From: Escherichia virus TH49 | DNA length: 41,043 nt | Sequence record: MT446417.1 | Strand: one strand, 5' to 3' | Shown here: one piece after another, positions 1 to 41,043 of the stretch | Position numbering within the stretch: the stretch's first letter is position 1 | Layout of the letters: each line of letters begins with the position of its first letter | Notes under the pieces: generated by a model | Database searches by the model: none | Told to the model about the DNA's origin: nothing | What the model saw: the letters and a program-made list of their open reading frames with translations, nothing else | Translations under genes and position numbers: made by a program

Positions 1-98
1 AACCATAGGCCACCCCTAACCGAAGGTTAAACCTTAGGTGGTACCGATGGGAAACCTTAGGTGATACTATATGTTGTGGTGAGGGTGACCTGAGGATA
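1..98. repeat. Left direct terminal repeat (DTR), at least 98 bp
   Basis: Positions 1..98 are identical to 40946..41043 by direct reading. T7-like genomes carry direct terminal repeats; the true repeat may be longer if the record was trimmed. Confidence 0.85.
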
Positions 99-210
99 CT
101 ATATGTTGATGTCCCTGTGTCCCTATCTGTTGGTACTCATTAAGTCACACCTTAGGACCTCCTGAGGTAACCACCTGAGGTTAGACCTGAGACCATATAC
201 CTTAGGTTAA
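30..210. repeat. Array of short CCTNAGG repeats (CCTTAGG / CCTGAGG) at the left end
   Basis: At least seven copies (about 32, 55, 89, 150, 161, 174, 200) within 180 bp. Analogous in position to the CCTAAAG repeats next to the T7 terminal repeat. Confidence 0.7.
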
Positions 211-2730: not shown

Positions 2731-2801
2731 CGAGGTGTATCTTAGGTGTCTCCGAACGGTGAGGCACCAATAGATAAACTTTATTCACAAAGAGGCACAC
2801 A

Positions 2802-5532: not shown

Positions 5533-5555
5533 AATTAGGGCACACTATAGGGAAC
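5533..5555 (+). promoter_or_regulatory. Phage RNAP promoter (phi1.1A-like), aattagggcacactatagggaac
   Basis: Near-consensus 23-mer directly after the RNAP gene. Followed by a 5' hairpin (gggaacc...gggttcc) and three ACTTAAAG repeats. Confidence 0.8.
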
Positions 5556-5620
5556 CTTCGAATGACCGAGGGTTCCATTACTTAAAGTCTTAACTTAAAG
5601 AATACTTAAAGAGGCATGCC

Positions 5621-6181
5621 ATGACTTACTCAATCGTTGTAACCATCTTGTTAATCATCACCGTAATTCTCCTCATCATGAGCCTAGGTGATGCAGCGGG
5701 CGATAAAGAACGCTTGGAACGTAAGGTACTGGAGGCAAACTCCCAGTTTAACAATGAGTCCTGCAAGGTCCTACGACTGGCGGACAAGGCTGACTCCCTG
5801 AGTAGACAGGTGCGATGGCTTGAGTCCATACTTGAGGAAGAAAAGCAGAATGTGCGCGATGTGAACGCACTCCGGGAGCACCAGCGTGAGCGCATGAAGT
5901 TTCTGCGCAAGTCCCTCAAGGAAGCACAAGACGAGCTGATGATGGTCTCCGACCTGATTCACGTTAAGTTCACCGCTGTGTTGCCGGACGGTACCCACTC
6001 TAAGACGCTCTTTAAGTTAGGGCTTGGGCCGTGTGGTCTCCACGTTAAGTCCCTCCGCTGGACCGAGCTGGATGACCGCTATCTGATAGACCAGCTGTGC
6101 ACCAACGGTGAGCGCAAGCAGTTCGTCTACTACAAGAGTGAAGTGGTAGGGCGTATTGAGTTCCGCCACGGTAAGATTTAA
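5621..6181 (+). CDS. Hypothetical membrane-anchored coiled-coil protein (186 aa)
   Basis: ATG with AAAGAGG upstream. N-terminal hydrophobic helix (IVVTILLIITVILLIM), then a charged heptad-like region, then a Cys-containing C-terminal part. No T7 counterpart recalled at this position. Confidence 0.6.
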   Translation: MTYSIVVTILLIITVILLIMSLGDAAGDKERLERKVLEANSQFNNESCKVLRLADKADSLSRQVRWLESILEEEKQNVRDVNALREHQRERMKFLRKSLKEAQDELMMVSDLIHVKFTAVLPDGTHSKTLFKLGLGPCGLHVKSLRWTELDDRYLIDQLCTNGERKQFVYYKSEVVGRIEFRHGKI

Positions 6182-6202
6182 TTAGGGCACACTATCAGGA
6201 AC
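6180..6202 (+). promoter_or_regulatory. Variant phage promoter-like sequence (phi1.1B-like), aattagggcacactatcaggaac
   Basis: The upstream 16 nt are consensus, but the initiation region is altered (CACTATCAGGAAC instead of CACTATAGGGAGA). It may be weak or inactive. Confidence 0.45.
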
Positions 6203-6205
6203 ATA

Positions 6206-6237
6206 CTCAAGGTCATCACGTTTGGTGGCCTTCATGA
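6206..6237 (+). promoter_or_regulatory. Putative RNase III processing hairpin (R1.1-like)
   Basis: Conserved element CTCAAGGTCAT-loop-GTGGCCTT(C/T)ATGA; the stem AAGGUCA / UGGCCUU has G-U wobbles. It is one of four copies at positions syntenic with T7 RNase III sites. Confidence 0.5.
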
Positions 6238-6270
6238 ATGTCCCTTACTATCACAATCAGGAGCAACACC

Positions 6271-6450: not shown

Positions 6451-6708
6451 ATGGCTACGGAAAAAAGATGGCTTTTCGATGGGAGCACCTCACAATGGTC
6501 TCGTTTAGGAGCAGCGGAGCGTAGACTGCTGGATACGACAGGACTGCACGTGGTCATGCTTGACGACCCATTCACTAACACCGTGCTGTTCAATGTGTTC
6601 GAGCCACGCGGTTCACTTCTAATAAGCAAGCGGTTCAGCCACTGGTCGATTGACTCAGCGTCAGACTGGCTGGCAAAACTCGCCGCAGACTACTCAAGCT
6701 GGAAGTAA
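6451..6708 (+). CDS. gp1.2: Gene 1.2 homolog (inhibitor of host dGTP triphosphohydrolase), 85 aa
   Basis: Same length as T7 gp1.2 (85 aa), with the C-terminal DWL...WK signature and the syntenic position after gene 1.1. Confidence 0.65.
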   Translation: MATEKRWLFDGSTSQWSRLGAAERRLLDTTGLHVVMLDDPFTNTVLFNVFEPRGSLLISKRFSHWSIDSASDWLAKLAADYSSWK

Positions 6709-6729
6709 TTAGGTCACACTATAGGCAGA
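6707..6729 (+). promoter_or_regulatory. Phage RNAP promoter (phi1.3-like), aattaggtcacactataggcaga
   Basis: 20 of 23 match to consensus, upstream of the ligase gene. Confidence 0.7.
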
Positions 6730-6762
6730 CTCAAGGTCATCGGATTCCGGTGGCCTTTATGA
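6730..6762 (+). promoter_or_regulatory. Putative RNase III processing hairpin (R1.3-like)
   Basis: Second copy of the CTCAAGGTCAT...GGTGGCCTTTATGA element. Confidence 0.5.
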
Positions 6763-6808
6763 TTGCTTATTGCACACTAAATGAACACTACACTTCGGAG
6801 ACATCATC

Positions 6809-10462: not shown

Positions 10463-10485
10463 CATTAGGGCACACTACAGGGAGA
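10463..10485 (+). promoter_or_regulatory. Phage RNAP promoter (phi3.8-like), cattagggcacactacagggaga
   Basis: Consensus with one substitution (CACTACAG); the transcript 5' end forms a GGGAGAC...GTTTCCC hairpin. Confidence 0.75.
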
Positions 10486-10524
10486 CAATCACGTTTCCCT
10501 GTTGTCGCTTGAGGAGATTACTTT

Positions 10525-13007: not shown

Positions 13008-13318
13008 TGACTACCAAAGCTAAATTCCCCGGCAATACCATTCAGCTGTCCGACACTGTAGACCAGTGGGGTCGCAAGGTTCACATCAACGTCCGCAACG
13101 ACAAGGTGACTCTGGTCTACCGCTGGAAGGCTAAGAGTGATAACCGTGCGCACACTCAGCGTGTTACCCTCGACGATACACAGGCAGCCCGCTTGCTGGC
13201 ATCCGCGGCTGTGGCCGCAACTGTGGCTATCGGTGAGGACAAAGTGCGTGAGGCCATCCTGAGCAAAGAGGTTGGCGAAACGTCCGTTCGTCTGGCTGAA
13301 GCGTCAGAAGTTAAGTGA
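13007..13318 (+). CDS. Hypothetical protein (103 aa), gene 4.5 position
   Basis: ATG overlaps the upstream stop (TAATG); AAGGAG upstream. Confidence 0.55.
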   Translation: MTTKAKFPGNTIQLSDTVDQWGRKVHINVRNDKVTLVYRWKAKSDNRAHTQRVTLDDTQAARLLASAAVAATVAIGEDKVREAILSKEVGETSVRLAEASEVK

Positions 13319-13322
13319 TAAA

Positions 13323-13357
13323 CTCAAGGTCATTACTATATGTAGTGGCCTTTATGA
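13323..13357 (+). promoter_or_regulatory. Putative RNase III processing hairpin (R4.7-like)
   Basis: Third copy of CTCAAGGTCAT...GTGGCCTTTATGA; the loop carries TACTATATGTAGTG. Confidence 0.5.
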
Positions 13358-13390
13358 TTATTACACACAACATATTGAGAGGACATTACC

Positions 13391-17704: not shown

Positions 17705-17796
17705 TTCTCATCGTCCTGACCATGGGCTTAGTCGCTCGTGGTCTCTGGATGTTGGCCTTGATTATCAAGCAGATAGTCGAGCATAAAGCAGAGTGA
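17686..17796 (+). CDS. Putative small membrane peptide (36 aa), gene 6.3 position
   Basis: ATG overlapping the end of gene 6; the product MATGQLILIVLTMGLVARGLWMLALIIKQ... has one transmembrane helix. Found by reading; below the ORF-track cutoff. Confidence 0.3.
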   Translation: MATGQLILIVLTMGLVARGLWMLALIIKQIVEHKAE

Positions 17797-17811
17797 TAAA
17801 CTCATGGGCAC

Positions 17812-17834
17812 AATTAGGACCCACTATAGGGAAG
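17812..17834 (+). promoter_or_regulatory. Phage RNAP promoter (phi6.5-like), aattaggacccactatagggaag
   Basis: Consensus-like 23-mer followed by two TACTTAAAG repeats and the gene 6.5 RBS. Confidence 0.75.
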
Positions 17835-17881
17835 TGCCCATTATGATTATTACTTAAAGATTACTTAAAGAGGAGACTCAA

Positions 17882-25760: not shown

Positions 25761-25785
25761 CTGAAGGAATCCTTATGGTGTGCTC

Positions 25786-25808
25786 AATTAGGGCACACTA
25801 TAGGGAGA
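25786..25808 (+). promoter_or_regulatory. Phage RNAP promoter (phi13-like), exact consensus
   Basis: Perfect aattagggcacactatagggaga, upstream of gene 13. Confidence 0.85.
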
Positions 25809-35561: not shown

Positions 35562-37538
35562 ATGTTAGACAATCTTAATCAACCGCGCGGAAGTACCGCA
35601 GGTATACTGGAACCTAACCGCGCTCCAGCGGTAATCACTAGGTCTGTGGCCGACCTCCTCTTAGATGGGGAGGCAGGTCTCCGTAAGAACTTTGGGGCCA
35701 AGGGAGACGGGGTGTCTGACGATACTGCCGCATTCAACGACTGGTGGGCGTGCCTCATGGATGTTAACTACAAGCGAAGACCAGCCGAGGAAGATGAGTC
35801 AACGGTTCGATTCATGCTTCAGAAGGGTCCTCTACTTAAGTTGGAGCACGGTACCTTTGTATATAGCGGTAAGGGGTTAGATATCGCCACTTCGAATGCC
35901 TTCGTGTTCAACGTTGTTGGGGAGAGTGCCTTGTCCACAAAGGTTCTAATCACGGGCGGGTACTACCTATTCGACTTCGCTAATAACCCGGTCCATTCCC
36001 TCCTCGGGGACATGACAATACACGGTGGGCTAGGTGCGGTTCGGTACCGCTCTAAGTCCCGTAACGCCAGTGGGATGCACATATTCAAGGACCTAAGGGT
36101 CTCTCGGTATTCTGAATGTGCTATCAGCCACAACTCTGTGGACATGCCGTACTTCCGTGTGGAGCGTGGGATGTTCTATGGTCGAACCGATATGCAGACC
36201 ATTGGTGTGTGCGTGTCTGGTCTCGCCGCTGGTGGCTACATTAAGGACTGTGTGTTCAGTGATAACCGTTACGGGATTAAACTGGCGGTAGGTGACAATG
36301 GTATCGAGCGCACTGGGCCAGCCACTCCGTTCCTCATTGAGGGTAATGACTTCTACCGAACAGGTAACAGGGCACCTAAGGCATCCTATGACGTATGGGT
36401 AGAGCCGGGTTCAACTGCCCAGAACTCAGGAAGAAGCATTAAGTTCAGCCGCAATAAGTTTGGACAAGAGTTCCTAGTGTACCCGGATTGTCACATTCTG
36501 GTTGCTGACGCCTACCCTACAGGGAGTGGCGCGGGACTGAATGGTGACAGGCACCACACCGAGGAGCAGTCGTCTGGATTCTTCTCTGGCGCACGGTTCG
36601 ATGACAACGACGTTAACTCCGTCAACTCTGGGTATAGCGCTCCGTACATCAAGTCGTTCACCCCAAACATCGGCAACTTACGTATAGCTGACTCATATGA
36701 TAACGGGATGCCCTCGCGGTTCATTGAGTTCTCCGGTGGAATCCTTCAGTCGCAGGTTAATAACCTCACTCGTACAAACGTCCTTGACATTAGTCACTGC
36801 GTGTCCCTACAGAAAGGGGTTGAGCCATCACTACTGTCTAACCTTAACGATGTCATCAAGGTTGTAGACCCGCTACAGTTACTTGCAGGTCATCCACAAT
36901 CTACGGCAATCCCTACAGGTAACCAGCACGTTGACTTCACGAGTGTGTATGCTGGGCCTACTAGCTCCATAGCTGTGACAGGTGCATCCCGTACTGCGAT
37001 AAACAACTCCTACGGTGGTATTACGGAGGCCGCAGAGATTACCCTGAGTTCTCCAGACGGTCGGGCTGTTATTACCGCACCCGGTGGGGTTGCTGGGCGT
37101 CAGCACTGGATTGACTTCGAAGTTAGACGCGGGTCGACGAACCCTGTGAGGTCTGTAATCGTGGAGATACTTGACCAGTCAGGGGTATCCTTACAATTGC
37201 GTAGGGTTATCCTTATGGACTCGGCCCTTCGGTGGCAGAAGGTGGTACTGCCGTATGTACCAAACGAGTCAGGTAATATCGTGATTAGGTTTAGGTCTGG
37301 CACCTTCGTTGAGGGGACTGCGACAACATTTGCGGTAGGTAACGCAAACATCTACCAGAACCCTACTCCGATAAACACGGGCCACAACAGCGGACTGTCC
37401 ATGCGCTGGAGTACACAACATGAGGTGCGTGGGTCTCGGCACGTTTGGGTGGACTCCTTAGGGAACTTCCGCTCGAAGAACGGCCAGCCTACGTCAGAGT
37501 CTGACGGTGTAATCATTAGTGCCAACCCATCACCATAA
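35562..37538 (+). CDS. Second receptor-binding protein: putative tailspike/capsule depolymerase without a gp17-type anchor domain
   Basis: 658 aa; ATG with AAGGAGA upstream. The motif FGAKGDGVSDDTAAF is typical of pectate-lyase-like right-handed beta-helix tailspikes. The position directly after gp17 matches the two-depolymerase layout of KP32-like Klebsiella phages. Confidence 0.72.
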   Translation: MLDNLNQPRGSTAGILEPNRAPAVITRSVADLLLDGEAGLRKNFGAKGDGVSDDTAAFNDWWACLMDVNYKRRPAEEDESTVRFMLQKGPLLKLEHGTFVYSGKGLDIATSNAFVFNVVGESALSTKVLITGGYYLFDFANNPVHSLLGDMTIHGGLGAVRYRSKSRNASGMHIFKDLRVSRYSECAISHNSVDMPYFRVERGMFYGRTDMQTIGVCVSGLAAGGYIKDCVFSDNRYGIKLAVGDNGIERTGPATPFLIEGNDFYRTGNRAPKASYDVWVEPGSTAQNSGRSIKFSRNKFGQEFLVYPDCHILVADAYPTGSGAGLNGDRHHTEEQSSGFFSGARFDDNDVNSVNSGYSAPYIKSFTPNIGNLRIADSYDNGMPSRFIEFSGGILQSQVNNLTRTNVLDISHCVSLQKGVEPSLLSNLNDVIKVVDPLQLLAGHPQSTAIPTGNQHVDFTSVYAGPTSSIAVTGASRTAINNSYGGITEAAEITLSSPDGRAVITAPGGVAGRQHWIDFEVRRGSTNPVRSVIVEILDQSGVSLQLRRVILMDSALRWQKVVLPYVPNESGNIVIRFRSGTFVEGTATTFAVGNANIYQNPTPINTGHNSGLSMRWSTQHEVRGSRHVWVDSLGNFRSKNGQPTSESDGVIISANPSP

Positions 37539-37754: not shown

Positions 37755-38012
37755 ATGGACCTGATTAAGTTCCTCGAAATGTTAGACACTGAGATGGCTC
37801 AGCAGATGCTCATGGACCTGAAGAATCCCGAGAAGCGAACCCCCCAGCTCTACAACGCCATTGGTAAACTACTGGAGCGCCATAAGTTCCAAATCTCTAA
37901 GCTGACCCCTGACGTTAACATCTTGGGCGGACTGGCTGAGGGCCTGGAGGCTTACAACTCAAAGGTTGGCGCTGATGGTCTGACAGACGACGATAAGTTC
38001 ACCCTACAGTGA
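37755..38012 (+). CDS. gp18: Terminase small subunit / DNA maturation protein A (T7 gp18 homolog)
   Basis: 85 aa. Matches the recalled T7 gp18 (FLEMLDT.MAQ.ML.DL, PQLYNAI.KLL.RHKFQI.KL.PDV.ILGGLA, GLTDDD..TLQ). Confidence 0.9.
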   Translation: MDLIKFLEMLDTEMAQQMLMDLKNPEKRTPQLYNAIGKLLERHKFQISKLTPDVNILGGLAEGLEAYNSKVGADGLTDDDKFTLQ

Positions 38013-38016
38013 TATA

Positions 38017-38050
38017 CTCAAGGTACTACTATATGTAGTGCCTTTATGGA
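38017..38050 (+). promoter_or_regulatory. Putative RNase III processing hairpin (R18.5-like)
   Basis: Fourth copy of the CTCAAGGT...TACTATATGTAGTG...CCTTTATGGA element, directly after gene 18 as in T7. Confidence 0.5.
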
Positions 38051-38108
38051 TGTCATTGCACTACGCTAGGCGTTCCTACGTGAAATCTGAGAAACAACGG
38101 GAGGCATT

Positions 38109-40389: not shown

Positions 40390-40412
40390 AATTAGGGCAC
40401 ACTATAGGGAGA
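40390..40412 (+). promoter_or_regulatory. Phage RNAP promoter (phiOR-like), exact consensus
   Basis: Perfect 23-mer between gene 19 and the right end, as in T7. Confidence 0.85.
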
Positions 40413-40849: not shown

Positions 40850-40945
40850 TTACCTTTAAGAATATTGCATAAAGTTCTGAGTGTACATCTCACAGTTTAC
40901 ACTTTTGGTTATCCCCCCCCGGTACCCTCCCAGTTCACCCAAAGT

Positions 40946-41043
40946 AACCATAGGCCACCCCTAACCGAAGGTTAAACCTTAGGTGGTACCGATGGGAAAC
41001 CTTAGGTGATACTATATGTTGTGGTGAGGGTGACCTGAGGATA
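40946..41043. repeat. Right direct terminal repeat (DTR), at least 98 bp
   Basis: Identical to 1..98 by direct reading. Confidence 0.85.

What the first reader, a model, noticed from the sequence alone, without database searches (positions are those of the whole stretch)
6206..6237. Family of four conserved hairpins CTCAAGGTCAT-loop-GTGGCCTTTATGA at T7 RNase III site positions
Copies at 6206, 6730, 13323 and 38017 share both arms and lie where T7 has R1.1, R1.3, R4.7 and R18.5. Two of them carry TACTATATGT(A/T)GTG in the loop, a motif also found twice inside the terminal repeat (about 63..78 and 98..110). That shared motif is unexplained and could mark a common protein-binding site.
Basis: partly seen in the sequence, partly recalled or inferred. 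Interest (0 to 1): 0.4.

Follow-up and report, generated by a model that had tools for sequence, protein, structure and literature searches.

The report
T7-type RNase III hairpins; apex copies terminal-repeat box
The four hairpins are ordinary, conserved RNase III mRNA-processing signals of a T7-like Klebsiella/E. coli phage, but the short sequence at the tip of two of them really is a copy of a conserved box near the end of the genome's terminal repeat, and that link recurs in related phage genera and is unexplained.

Summary
The window is a circularly cut Przondovirus (K11-like) genome, 100% identical to Escherichia virus TH50. The four hairpins exist as described. Each folds into lower stem, 4/5-nt internal loop and 10-11 bp upper stem, exactly like T7 R1.1, R0.5, R4.7 and R18.5. 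They sit in the syntenic gaps. R1-, R3.8- and R13-like hairpins are present too. This part is a known kind.

The "loop motif" is really the top of the upper stem plus a UAUAU loop. TACTATATGT occurs only at those two apexes and in two terminal-repeat boxes. The link is not chance:
- K30 shares a 15-mer between its R4.7 apex and box 1.
- In Berlinvirus the R18.5 apex, read as reverse complement, matches box 1 over 17 nt.
- Erwinia phage L1 shows a comparable 10-mer match.

The boxes lie at fixed offsets (-27 and -59/-60) from the repeat's right end. The function is unknown. My best guess is an orientation-independent dsDNA recognition box for concatemer processing or packaging. No experiment supports this yet.

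The parts
6197..6245 (+). R1.1-type RNase III hairpin. By alignment with T7 R1.1, the predicted single cut is after 6235 (CCUUCAU^GAA).
   Evidence: Fold: -17.5 kcal/mol, z -2.2. CM R2 built from T7+T3 sites only: 53.5 bits, E 1e-9. It lies just downstream of the phi1.1 promoter at 6180-6202.
6721..6770 (+). R1.3-type RNase III hairpin. Predicted cut after 6760.
   Evidence: Fold: -22.9 kcal/mol, z -3.6. CM R2: 45.3 bits. It lies downstream of the phi1.3 promoter at 6707-6729 and upstream of the ligase gene.
13315..13364 (+). R4.7-type RNase III hairpin. Predicted cut after 13355. The apex UAC-UAUAU-GUA carries TACTATATGTAGTG at 13334-13347. The gene 4.5 stop codon TGA (13316-13318) lies in the lower stem.
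   Evidence: Fold: 11-bp upper stem, 5-nt loop, z -3.7. CM R2: 54.6 bits. Found in 66 related contigs.
17791..17855 (+). The phi6.5 promoter AATTAGGACCCACTATAGGGAA sits in its apex. Predicted cut after 17844.
   Evidence: CM R1: 38.2 bits. CM R2: 37.2 bits, E 6e-6. Fold z -3.85. Same layout as the annotated T3 R6.5.
38007..38058 (+). R18.5-type RNase III hairpin. Predicted cut after 38047. The apex carries TACTATATGTAGTG at 38027-38040. The gene 18 stop codon TGA (38010-38012) lies in the lower stem.
   Evidence: Fold: -24.2 kcal/mol, z -4.3. CM R2: 41.7 bits. Covariation in 29 homologues: 97% of cells paired, 88 double changes, 0/500 shuffles.
2738..2776 (+). Divergent R1-like hairpin between the kinase gene 0.7 and the RNA polymerase gene 1 (candidate member only).
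   Evidence: Fold z -3.3. CM R2 gives only 13.4 bits, E 1.5. Same position as T7/T3 R1. K30 annotates a stem_loop at this position.
10477..10502 (+). R3.8-like hairpin at the 5' end of the transcript from the promoter at 10463 (a different sub-type from the main family).
   Evidence: Fold. Resembles T7 R3.8 GGGAGACCACAGCGGTTTCCC.
25770..25806 (+). R13-like 16-bp hairpin that contains the phi13 promoter.
   Evidence: Fold z -5.4. Same layout as the annotated T3 R13.
63..79 (.). Terminal-repeat box 1, GATACTATATGTTGTGG. Its core starts 59 nt before the right end of the repeat.
   Evidence: Conserved in 46 distinct Przondovirus repeats. Fixed offset. K30, L123 and L157 carry TACTATATGTAGTGG here.
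95..111 (.). Terminal-repeat box 2, GATACTATATGTTGATG. Its core starts 27 nt before the right end of the repeat.
121..131 (+). Concatemer-junction sequence CCCTATCTGTT. The repeat ends after CCCT at 124. ATCTGTT is the class II pause signal of T7-type RNA polymerase.
   Evidence: K11 annotates the terminal repeat as 1-180 and the 'concatemeric junction' as 180-188. Class II signal per bioRxiv 10.1101/2021.01.11.426313.
41008..41024 (.). Second copy of box 1 in the right-hand terminal repeat. The window is cut inside the repeat, and the true left end TCTCACAG is at 40888.

Best explanation
**What the hairpins are.** The hairpins at 6197-6245, 6721-6770, 13315-13364, 17791-17855 and 38007-38058 are the R1.1, R1.3, R4.7, R6.5 and R18.5 RNase III processing signals of a K11-like (Przondovirus) T7-group phage. 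Weaker R1-, R3.8- and R13-like hairpins are also present.

**How they work (inferred from T7, not shown here).** They are transcribed rightward inside polycistronic phage mRNAs. Host RNase III binds the 10-11 bp upper stem. Because of the asymmetric internal loop (ACUC opposite UUAUG), it cuts only the 3' strand, at CCUUUAU^GA. This leaves the upstream message ending in a protective 3' hairpin and gives the downstream message a defined 5' end.

**What the motif is.** TACTATATGTAGTG is not a free loop. It forms the top three base pairs plus a UAUAU loop of the R4.7 and R18.5 upper stems. RNase III does not need any particular apical sequence.

**The link to the terminal repeat (shown).** This apex is a copy of a conserved box. 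The box occurs twice in the 182-bp terminal repeat, at fixed offsets of 27 and 59-60 nt from the repeat's right end. It lies just upstream of the concatemer-junction sequence CCCT|ATCTGTT, which it also resembles (CTATATGTTG against CTATCTGTTG).

**Function of the boxes (inferred, about 0.3 probability).** I think the repeat boxes are orientation-independent double-stranded DNA recognition elements for the concatemer-processing or packaging machinery. The hairpin apexes would then be either paralogous copies kept for the same factor or historical copies with no role of their own.
For: **RNase III identity**
- T7's mapped sites R0.3, R0.5, R1.1, R4.7 and R18.5 carry the same CTCAAGG...CCTTTATG frame.
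- The T3 record annotates ten RNase III stem_loops with the same consensus.
- The window hairpins and the T7 hairpins give identical predicted architecture.
- A covariance model built from T7 and T3 sites only finds exactly these five sites at 37-55 bits. Nothing else scores above 14 bits.
- Covariation is strong: 13 of 17 pairs show compensatory changes across paralogues. Among R18.5 orthologues 97% of cells are paired, with 88 double-change cells, 0/500 shuffles reaching that value, and slid controls at 36-56%.
- The sites are syntenic.
- PMC1540722 reports that internal loops restrict cleavage to one phosphodiester and leave a protective 3' hairpin, that an 11-bp helix suffices, and that there is no loop sequence requirement.

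**Apex/box link**
- The motif is restricted to these sites.
- The boxes are conservation islands in 46 repeats and sit at fixed offsets in 46 of the 53 repeat ends scanned, from Przondovirus and Berlinvirus.
- K30's R4.7 apex shares a 15-mer with box 1.
- The reverse complement of the Salmonella phage BSP161 R18.5 apex matches box 1 over 17 of 17 nt.
- Erwinia phage L1's apex shares TACTATATGT with its box 2.
- ACTA-N4-TAGT occurs in BA14 only at the two boxes and at R18.5.
- Shuffled apexes reach the observed match length in 7/5000 trials for the window and 0/5000 for K30, BSP161 and L196. T7 and T3 show no link.

**Evidence for a dsDNA-level role**
- Box 1 is inverted between Berlinvirus and L1; a 14-mer is identical on opposite strands.
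- The Przondovirus boxes cannot form the hairpin, and the repeat's RNA fold is not significant (z -1.6).
Against: No cleavage data exist for this phage. K11 and K30 records do not annotate RNase III sites, and Rfam has no such family.

Against a functional apex/box link:
- There is no covariation within the genus. Eight contigs have UACAU in the R18.5 loop with unchanged boxes, and their R4.7 apexes are also unchanged.
- Przondovirus contigs L169 and L170 replaced the R18.5 apex with UUCCUGAGGGAG, so the apex motif is dispensable there.
- Dickeya phage Luksen has the box but no R18.5 hairpin.
- T7 and T3 lack the boxes, yet they process concatemers.
- In this window alone the match is only a 10-mer (14 of 15), at about p = 1e-3.
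- No protein partner is identified.
Confidence: 0.85

Rival explanations
1. The apex/box identity is historical only. The palindromic apex and the boxes are paralogous copies spread by recombination or template switching between short repeats of a highly recombinogenic phage genome. The boxes may matter for the repeat, but the hairpin apex copies have no function beyond closing the RNase III stem.
For: - RNase III needs no specific apex (PMC1540722).
- Apexes are freely replaced in some relatives: L169, L170, L180 and T3-like phages.
- There is no within-genus covariation between apexes and boxes.
- Erwinia phage L1 carries the Przondovirus R4.7-type apex at its R18.5 site, which shows that apexes move between sites.
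- The in-place inversion of box 1 is typical of palindrome-mediated template switching.
Against: - The ACTA...TAGT arms of the R18.5 apex are kept without compensatory change across T7, Berlinvirus, Przondovirus and Elunavirus, although the stems of other sites covary freely.
- The R4.7 apex is nearly invariant in about 54 Przondovirus contigs, while the R1.1 apex is hypervariable in the same genomes.
- L190 keeps the palindrome after gene 18 although the RNase III arms are gone.
Confidence: 0.3
2. The shared motif is a chance match between AT-rich, palindrome-like short sequences.
For: - In the window the exact match is only 10 nt.
- Several unrelated 10-mers also occur four times in this genome because of codon bias.
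- K11 shares only a 9-mer.
Against: - Exact matches of 15, 14 and 17 nt occur in K30 and BSP161.
- 0/5000 shuffles reach these lengths in three genomes.
- The link recurs in three genera with different sequences.
- The motif is restricted to these sites.
Confidence: 0.05
3. The boxes and apexes act through the phage RNA polymerase. They would be either degenerate promoters (they contain ACTATA) or extra class II pause sites related to the junction signal ATCTGTT.
For: - Box 1 with its upstream heptamer matches 13 of 17 positions of the promoter consensus.
- CTATATGTTG differs from the junction sequence CTATCTGTTG at one base.
- T7 RNA polymerase pausing at the junction is known to be needed for concatemer processing (my own knowledge of Lyakhov et al. 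1997 and Zhang & Studier 2004).
- Real promoters do sit inside the R6.5 and R13 hairpins.
Against: - On a promoter weight matrix, box 1 scores 3.4 bits (rank 24), box 2 ranks 379 and the R4.7 apex ranks 4476. Real promoters score 28-39 bits.
- Class II signals are reported to lose function with any base change.
- Box 1 is inverted between lineages and the Berlinvirus apex matches on the opposite strand. This is incompatible with a strand-specific polymerase signal.
Confidence: 0.1
4. The motif works at the RNA level. A protein, or another RNA, would recognise the UACUAUAUGUA hairpin tip in mRNAs and in read-through transcripts of the repeat, for example to modulate RNase III processing or the stability of gene 4.5 and gene 18 mRNAs.
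For: After cleavage the hairpins become the 3' ends of the gene 4.5 and gene 18 (small terminase) mRNAs. The repeat is transcribed in the same direction from phiOR at 40390.
Against: - Przondovirus boxes cannot form the apex hairpin (GUUG instead of GUAG).
- The repeat's RNA fold is not significant.
- In Berlinvirus the box RNA would be the complement of the apex, not a copy.
- Loop nucleotides vary (UACAU, CAUAU, UAUGU).
Confidence: 0.07
5. The hairpins are not RNase III sites but transcription terminators, pause sites or translational operators.
For: They are stable hairpins followed by a short U-containing stretch (CCUUUAUGAUU).
Against: - They lack the G+C-rich stem and long U run of the T-phi terminator.
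- They are orthologous to sites where T7 mRNAs were shown to be cut by RNase III (Dunn & Studier 1983, my own knowledge).
- The invariant nucleotides surround the internal loop where cleavage occurs, not the stem base.
Confidence: 0.03

Closest known systems
Bacteriophage T7 RNase III processing signals R1.1, R0.5, R4.7 and R18.5 (Dunn & Studier 1983; Nicholson laboratory R1.1 model substrate)
   Same: They share the ACUCAAGG...CCUUUAUGA frame and the lower stem / asymmetric internal loop / 10-11 bp upper stem layout. They occupy the same intergenic positions and have the same orientation.
   Different: - The apical sequences differ.
- In the window R1.3 has the full consensus, whereas T7 R1.3 is divergent (CUUAAGG...CCUUAGUC).
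- No R0.3 or R0.5 homologue is detectable in this window's early region.
- No cleavage data exist for this phage.
Annotated RNase III recognition sites of phage T3 (NC_003298 stem_loop features), including R6.5 and R13 with promoters inside the hairpin
   Same: Same consensus. The window's R6.5 (17791-17855) and R13-like hairpin (25770-25806) enclose the phi6.5 and phi13 promoters, as in T3.
   Different: The promoter sequences are K11-type (AATTAGGGCACACTATAGGGAGA). The T3 apexes show no similarity to the T3 terminal repeat.
T7 concatemer-junction class II pause/termination signal (ATCTGTT)
   Same: The window has the exact signal at 125-131, at the repeat boundary. The two boxes upstream resemble it (CTATATGTTG against CTATCTGTTG) and lie 24 and 56 nt upstream.
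   Different: The boxes carry A in place of the essential C. Any change is reported to abolish class II function. The boxes can also be inverted, so they are not members of this class.
Repeated terminase-recognition boxes next to a cut site (lambda cosB R sites, SPP1 pac boxes); analogy only
   Same: Two related boxes about three helical turns apart (32-33 bp), at a fixed distance from the DNA end that terminase generates.
   Different: No binding data exist. T7-group recognition of the concatemer junction is not defined (PMC13595956). T7 and T3 lack the boxes.

Membership tests
T7-group RNase III processing signal (R1.1 type) | Hairpin with a lower stem, an asymmetric 4-5 nt internal loop and an upper stem of about 10-11 bp. 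| tested here: met
   All five sites fold this way, with the same dot-bracket pattern as T7 R1.1, R0.5, R4.7 and R18.5.
T7-group RNase III processing signal (R1.1 type) | Conserved nucleotides flanking the internal loop (ACUCAAGG ... CCUUUAUGA). | tested here: met
   Alignment A1 shows the invariant AGG/CU and the near-invariant GUGGC. R6.5 has the variant CUCAUGG...CCAUUAUGA.
T7-group RNase III processing signal (R1.1 type) | Scores against a structure-and-sequence model built only from T7 and T3 sites. | tested here: met
   CM R2 gives 54.6, 53.5, 45.3, 41.7 and 37.2 bits (E 7e-10 to 6e-6). The next hit scores 13.4 bits.
T7-group RNase III processing signal (R1.1 type) | Base pairs supported by compensatory change. 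| tested here: met
   13 of 17 pairs show double changes among paralogues. Among R18.5 orthologues 97.3% of cells are paired, 0/500 shuffles reach that value, and slid controls give at most 56%.
T7-group RNase III processing signal (R1.1 type) | Intergenic, on the transcribed strand, at the syntenic positions of T7 R1.1, R1.3, R4.7, R6.5 and R18.5. | tested here: met
   ORF map, K11 annotation, PHROG hits for the flanking genes, promoter positions.
T7-group RNase III processing signal (R1.1 type) | Helix of at least 11 bp between the scissile bond and the apical loop (the minimum reported in PMC1540722). | tested here: inconclusive
   The upper stems are 10-11 bp, with 3 loop nucleotides before the predicted cut, as in T7 R1.1. 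Equivalence to the 11-bp rule depends on non-canonical pairs in the internal loop.
T7-group RNase III processing signal (R1.1 type) | Site-specific cleavage by host RNase III in vivo or in vitro. | not testable with these tools
   No transcript-end data are available.
Class II pause/termination signal of T7-type RNA polymerase | Exact ATCTGTT on the non-template strand. | tested here: not met
   The boxes and apexes read ATATGTT and ATATGTA. Only 125-131 is an exact match.
K11-type phage promoter | Match to the 23-bp promoter consensus. | tested here: not met
   The weight matrix gives real promoters 28-39 bits. Box 1 scores 3.4, box 2 -7.1, the R18.5 apex -2.9 and the R4.7 apex -17.7.
Rfam RNA families | Reaches the gathering score of any family. 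| tested here: not met
   No match in the whole window.
Terminase recognition repeats (pac/cosB-like) | Repeated boxes at a fixed distance and phase from the terminase cut site. | tested here: met
   Box cores start at -27 and -59/-60 from the repeat end in 46 of the 53 repeat ends scanned.
Terminase recognition repeats (pac/cosB-like) | Bound by the small terminase and required for packaging. | not testable with these tools
   No binding or genetic data. No literature was found.

The most novel reading that the evidence does not exclude
The palindromic box (core ACTA-N4-TAGT; here TACTATATGT) may be the recognition element of a symmetric dsDNA-binding component of the T7-group concatemer-processing or packaging machinery. 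The box sits at fixed positions 27 and 59-60 nt from the right end of the terminal repeat in Przondovirus and Berlinvirus, and boxes occupy the corresponding region in Elunavirus and Ningirsuvirus. It is copied in the apex of the hairpin that starts 5 nt after the small-terminase gene. The small terminase gp18 is the obvious candidate binder. The internal copies at R18.5, and at R4.7 in Przondovirus, would then be functional second sites or a fossil pac site next to the terminase gene. If so, this would be the first defined terminase-recognition sequence for direct-terminal-repeat phages of the T7 type.
Probability: 0.2. Interest if true: 0.65.

Novelty: new member of a known kind. Interest (0 to 1): 0.4.

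Why it matters
The hairpins themselves only extend a textbook system, RNase III processing of T7 mRNAs, to K11-like phages. Public records do not annotate these sites, so they are useful for annotation and for engineering therapeutic Klebsiella phages, but they are not surprising.

The apex/terminal-repeat link is the interesting part. [quoted passage not shown] The boxes are conserved, fixed in position and tolerant of inversion, and they lie next to the cut site. That gives a concrete sequence to mutate and footprint. Its unexpected copy next to the small-terminase gene gives a second handle on the same question.

Tried and rejected
- **Rfam scan of the whole window:** no family matched.
- **IMG/VR pattern scan with CTCAAGG-N(8-30)-CCTTTATG:** I replaced it with protein-anchored locus retrieval.
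- **Pseudo-promoter idea for the boxes and apexes:** the promoter weight-matrix ranks are unremarkable.
- **Extra class II pause sites:** the boxes differ at a position reported as essential, and they can be inverted.
- **RNA structure in the repeat:** the fold is not significant (z -1.6).
- **Ongoing gene conversion between the R4.7 and R18.5 apexes:** variants do not co-occur.
- **Within-genus covariation between apex and boxes:** none was seen.
- **Literature searches** for the motif, for RNase III sites in Klebsiella T7-like phages, for pacB/T3 and for terminase recognition in Autographiviridae found nothing on the boxes. The phiYeO3-12 genome paper is not held in the library.
- **R0.3 and R0.5 homologues in the window's early region:** not detected by either covariance model. 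Only a weak, long hairpin at about 607-688 was found (z -2.0).

Full report
**Identity of the window.** The first 25 kb is 100% identical to Escherichia virus TH50 and about 92-93% identical to many Klebsiella Przondovirus (K11-like) phages. The window is a complete genome cut inside its direct terminal repeat. The true left end, TCTCACAGTTTAC, is at 40888, and window 1-98 repeats 40946-41043. The repeat is 182 bp and ends after CCCT at 124. That length agrees with the 180-183 bp reported for przondoviruses (PMC10438801).

**Check of the observation.** All four elements are at the stated coordinates. Each folds into a 7-9 bp lower stem, an asymmetric internal loop (ACUC on the 5' side, UUAUG on the 3' side) and a 10-11 bp upper stem. 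The fold z-scores are -2.2 to -4.3. This architecture is the same as that predicted for T7 R1.1, R0.5, R4.7 and R18.5 in the same run.

TACTATATGT occurs only at 65, 97, 13334 and 38027, plus 41010, which is the duplicate of 65. With one mismatch allowed there are 6 matches against 1.26 expected, and 0 of 100 shuffles reach 6.

Three corrections are needed:
- In the hairpins, TAC and GTA are paired and only UAUAU is a loop.
- The second repeat copy continues TGAT, not (A/T)GTG.
- The family has more members than four.

**What the hairpins are.** The mapped T7 cleavage sites as I recalled them (R0.3 890, R0.5 1468, R1.1 5887, R4.7 13892, R18.5 36856) all fall at CCTTTAT^GA within the same CTCAAGG...CCTTTATG frame. 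The T3 RefSeq record annotates ten "RNase III recognition site" stem_loops with the same consensus.

An alignment of the four window sites with seven T7 and seven T3 sites gives a consensus structure. In it, 13 of 17 pairs show compensatory change.

A covariance model built from the T7 and T3 sites alone finds five sites in the window:
- 13312-13369: 54.6 bits
- 6195-6249: 53.5 bits
- 6719-6774: 45.3 bits
- 38006-38061: 41.7 bits
- 17790-17855: 37.2 bits

The next hit scores 13.4 bits.

The fifth site is R6.5. Its apex contains the phi6.5 promoter AATTAGGACCCACTATAGGGAA, exactly as in the annotated T3 R6.5.

Other T7-type sites are also present:
- An R1-like hairpin at 2738-2776, between the kinase and RNA polymerase genes.
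- An R3.8-like hairpin at 10477-10502.
- A 16-bp R13-like hairpin at 25770-25806 that encloses the phi13 promoter.

Synteny is exact:
- The first site follows phi1.1.
- The second follows phi1.3, between the dGTPase-inhibitor and ligase genes.
- The third lies between genes 4.5 and 4.7.
- The fourth starts 5 nt after the small-terminase gene and precedes the Rz spanin gene.

The TGA stop codons of genes 4.5 and 18 lie inside the conserved lower-stem sequence GUGAUA.

Across 29 R18.5 orthologues from several genera, 97.3% of cells are paired and there are 88 double-change cells. No shuffle out of 500 reaches this, and slid controls give 36-56%. The nucleotides around the internal loop stay invariant.

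**Mechanism, inferred from T7.** Host RNase III binds the upper stem and makes a single cut in the 3' side of the internal loop. The upstream message then ends in a hairpin that protects it from 3' exonucleases. PMC1540722 states this role for internal loops. It also reports that an 11-bp helix is sufficient and that the apical loop sequence is not required. Cleavage in this phage has not been tested. K11 and K30 records do not annotate these sites, and Rfam has no model for them.

**The motif and the terminal repeat.** The repeat contains two boxes, GATACTATATGTTGTGG (63-79) and GATACTATATGTTGATG (95-111), followed by CCCTATCTGTT (121-131). That last sequence is the concatemer junction, with the class II polymerase pause signal ATCTGTT.

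In 46 distinct Przondovirus repeats the boxes are conserved islands in a more variable background. Their cores start 27 and 59-60 nt before the repeat's right end in 46 of the 53 repeat ends scanned, from Przondovirus and Berlinvirus.

The similarity to the hairpin apex is not chance:
- K30, L123 and L157 have box 1 as TACTATATGTAGTGG, a 15-mer identical to the R4.7 apex.
- In the Berlinvirus clade (BA14, Salmonella phage BSP161), the R18.5 apex is GGCCACTACATCTAGTGGTC. Its reverse complement matches box 1, GACCACTAGATGTAGTG, over 17 nt. Box 2, CCACTATATGTAGTCC, shares a 12-mer with the window's apexes.
- Erwinia phage vB_EamP-L1 has the apex GTCATTACTATATGTAGTGGC at R18.5 and box 2 as GATACTATATGTGGG.
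- ACTA-N4-TAGT occurs in BA14 only at the two boxes and R18.5, and in K30 only at box 1, R4.7 and R18.5.
- Shuffled apexes reach the observed match length in 7/5000 trials for the window and 0/5000 for K30, BSP161 and L196. T7 and T3 show no relation.

**What the link does and does not show.** There is no covariation within the genus. Eight contigs carry UACAU in the R18.5 loop with unchanged boxes and unchanged R4.7 apexes. Two Przondovirus contigs replaced the R18.5 apex altogether. Dickeya phage Luksen has a perfectly palindromic box (CTACATGTAG) at -27 but no R18.5 hairpin. The boxes therefore stand on their own.

On the other side, the ACTA/TAGT arms of the R18.5 apex persist without compensatory change across T7, Berlinvirus, Przondovirus and Elunavirus. 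The R4.7 apex is nearly invariant in about 54 contigs, while the R1.1 apex is hypervariable in the same set. Contig L190 keeps the palindrome after gene 18 although the RNase III arms are lost.

Box 1 is inverted in place between Berlinvirus and Erwinia phage L1, with a 14-mer identical on opposite strands. The Przondovirus boxes cannot form the hairpin, and the repeat RNA does not fold significantly. These points argue against RNA-level or strand-specific polymerase functions. They favour a symmetric double-stranded DNA element.

The pseudo-promoter idea fails a weight-matrix test. Box 1 scores 3.4 bits and ranks 24, against 28-39 bits for real promoters. The boxes also differ from the class II signal at a base reported as essential.

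**Most likely explanation.** The hairpins are RNase III processing signals (about 0.9). The apex/box relationship is real (about 0.85). Its meaning is open. I favour repeat boxes that serve concatemer processing or packaging as orientation-independent DNA sites (about 0.3). The hairpin copies would be either second sites for the same factor or historical copies (about 0.3 for purely historical). No publication describing the boxes was found. [quoted passage not shown]

**Verdict.** The core of the finding is an ordinary, already known kind of element that is simply unannotated in this genus. That part gives the finding moderate interest.

Noticed in passing
window 40888-41043 and 1-124: The window is a circular permutation of a linear genome. 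The true left end TCTCACAGTTTAC is at 40888, window 1-98 duplicates 40946-41043, and the direct terminal repeat is 182 bp, ending after CCCT at 124.
   Followed up: yes
whole window (e.g. 796, 1338, 3168, ...; 41 sites): CTCAAGG and its complement CCTTGAG, the 5' arm of the RNase III sites, together form the most frequent heptamer in the window (41 copies against 6.7 expected). It is also the most frequent in K11 and T7. Inside genes it falls almost only in the frames CTC-AAG-G and NNC-CTT-GAG, so codon or dipeptide bias explains part of it. It is also one of the heptamer repeats of the T7 terminal repeat.
   Followed up: partly
window 17791-17855: An R6.5-type RNase III hairpin whose apex is the complete phi6.5 promoter. 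Read-through transcripts carry the processing site, while transcripts started at phi6.5 carry only its 3' half.
   Followed up: yes
window 25770-25806: A perfect 16-bp hairpin, UCCUUAUGGUGUGCUC/GGGCACACUAUAGGGA, that encloses the phi13 promoter (z -5.4). It is the counterpart of T3/T7 R13.
   Followed up: partly
window 5551-5576 and 10477-10502: Stable hairpins at the 5' ends of the phi1.05 and phi3.8/4 transcripts (GGAACCUUCG...CGAGGGUUCC and ACAGGGAGAC...GUUUCCCUGU). The second resembles T7 R3.8.
   Followed up: partly
window 13316-13318 and 38010-38012: The stop codons of gene 4.5 and gene 18 lie inside the conserved lower-stem sequence (A)GUGAUA(A/U)A of the RNase III hairpins. That lower-stem motif therefore doubles as the translation stop.
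   Followed up: no
window 260, 5533, 6180, 6707, 7839, 8791, 10463, 17812, 20231, 21245, 25786, 33073, 40390: Thirteen K11-type phage promoters (consensus AATTAGGGCACACTATAGGGAGA). The one at 6180 has CACTATCAGG and the one at 10463 has CACTACAGGG at the start site.
   Followed up: partly
L190:4270-4320 (IMG/VR contig 651703085): Downstream of gene 18 this relative has lost the CTCAAGG/CCTTTATG arms. It keeps the palindrome GGGATACTACATGTAGTGTGTCC at the R18.5 position.
   Followed up: no
L199 (Erwinia phage vB_EamP-L1) last 80 nt, compared with L178/L298 (Berlinvirus) repeat: Terminal-repeat box 1 is inverted in place between the two lineages. ACCACTAGATGTAG lies on the top strand in Berlinvirus and on the bottom strand in L1.
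   Followed up: partly
L001 (T7) 36815-36871: The reverse complement of the T7 R18.5 apex reads CCACTATCTGTAGTGG. It contains TATCTGT, the core of the concatemer-junction class II signal, on the non-transcribed strand. The T7 record places the minor E. coli promoter E start at 36836, inside this hairpin.
   Followed up: no
window 5577-5612 and 17849-17871: Short direct repeats (A)TTACTTAAAG follow the phi1.05 hairpin and the R6.5 hairpin, in the 5' leaders of genes 1.05 and 6.5.
   Followed up: no
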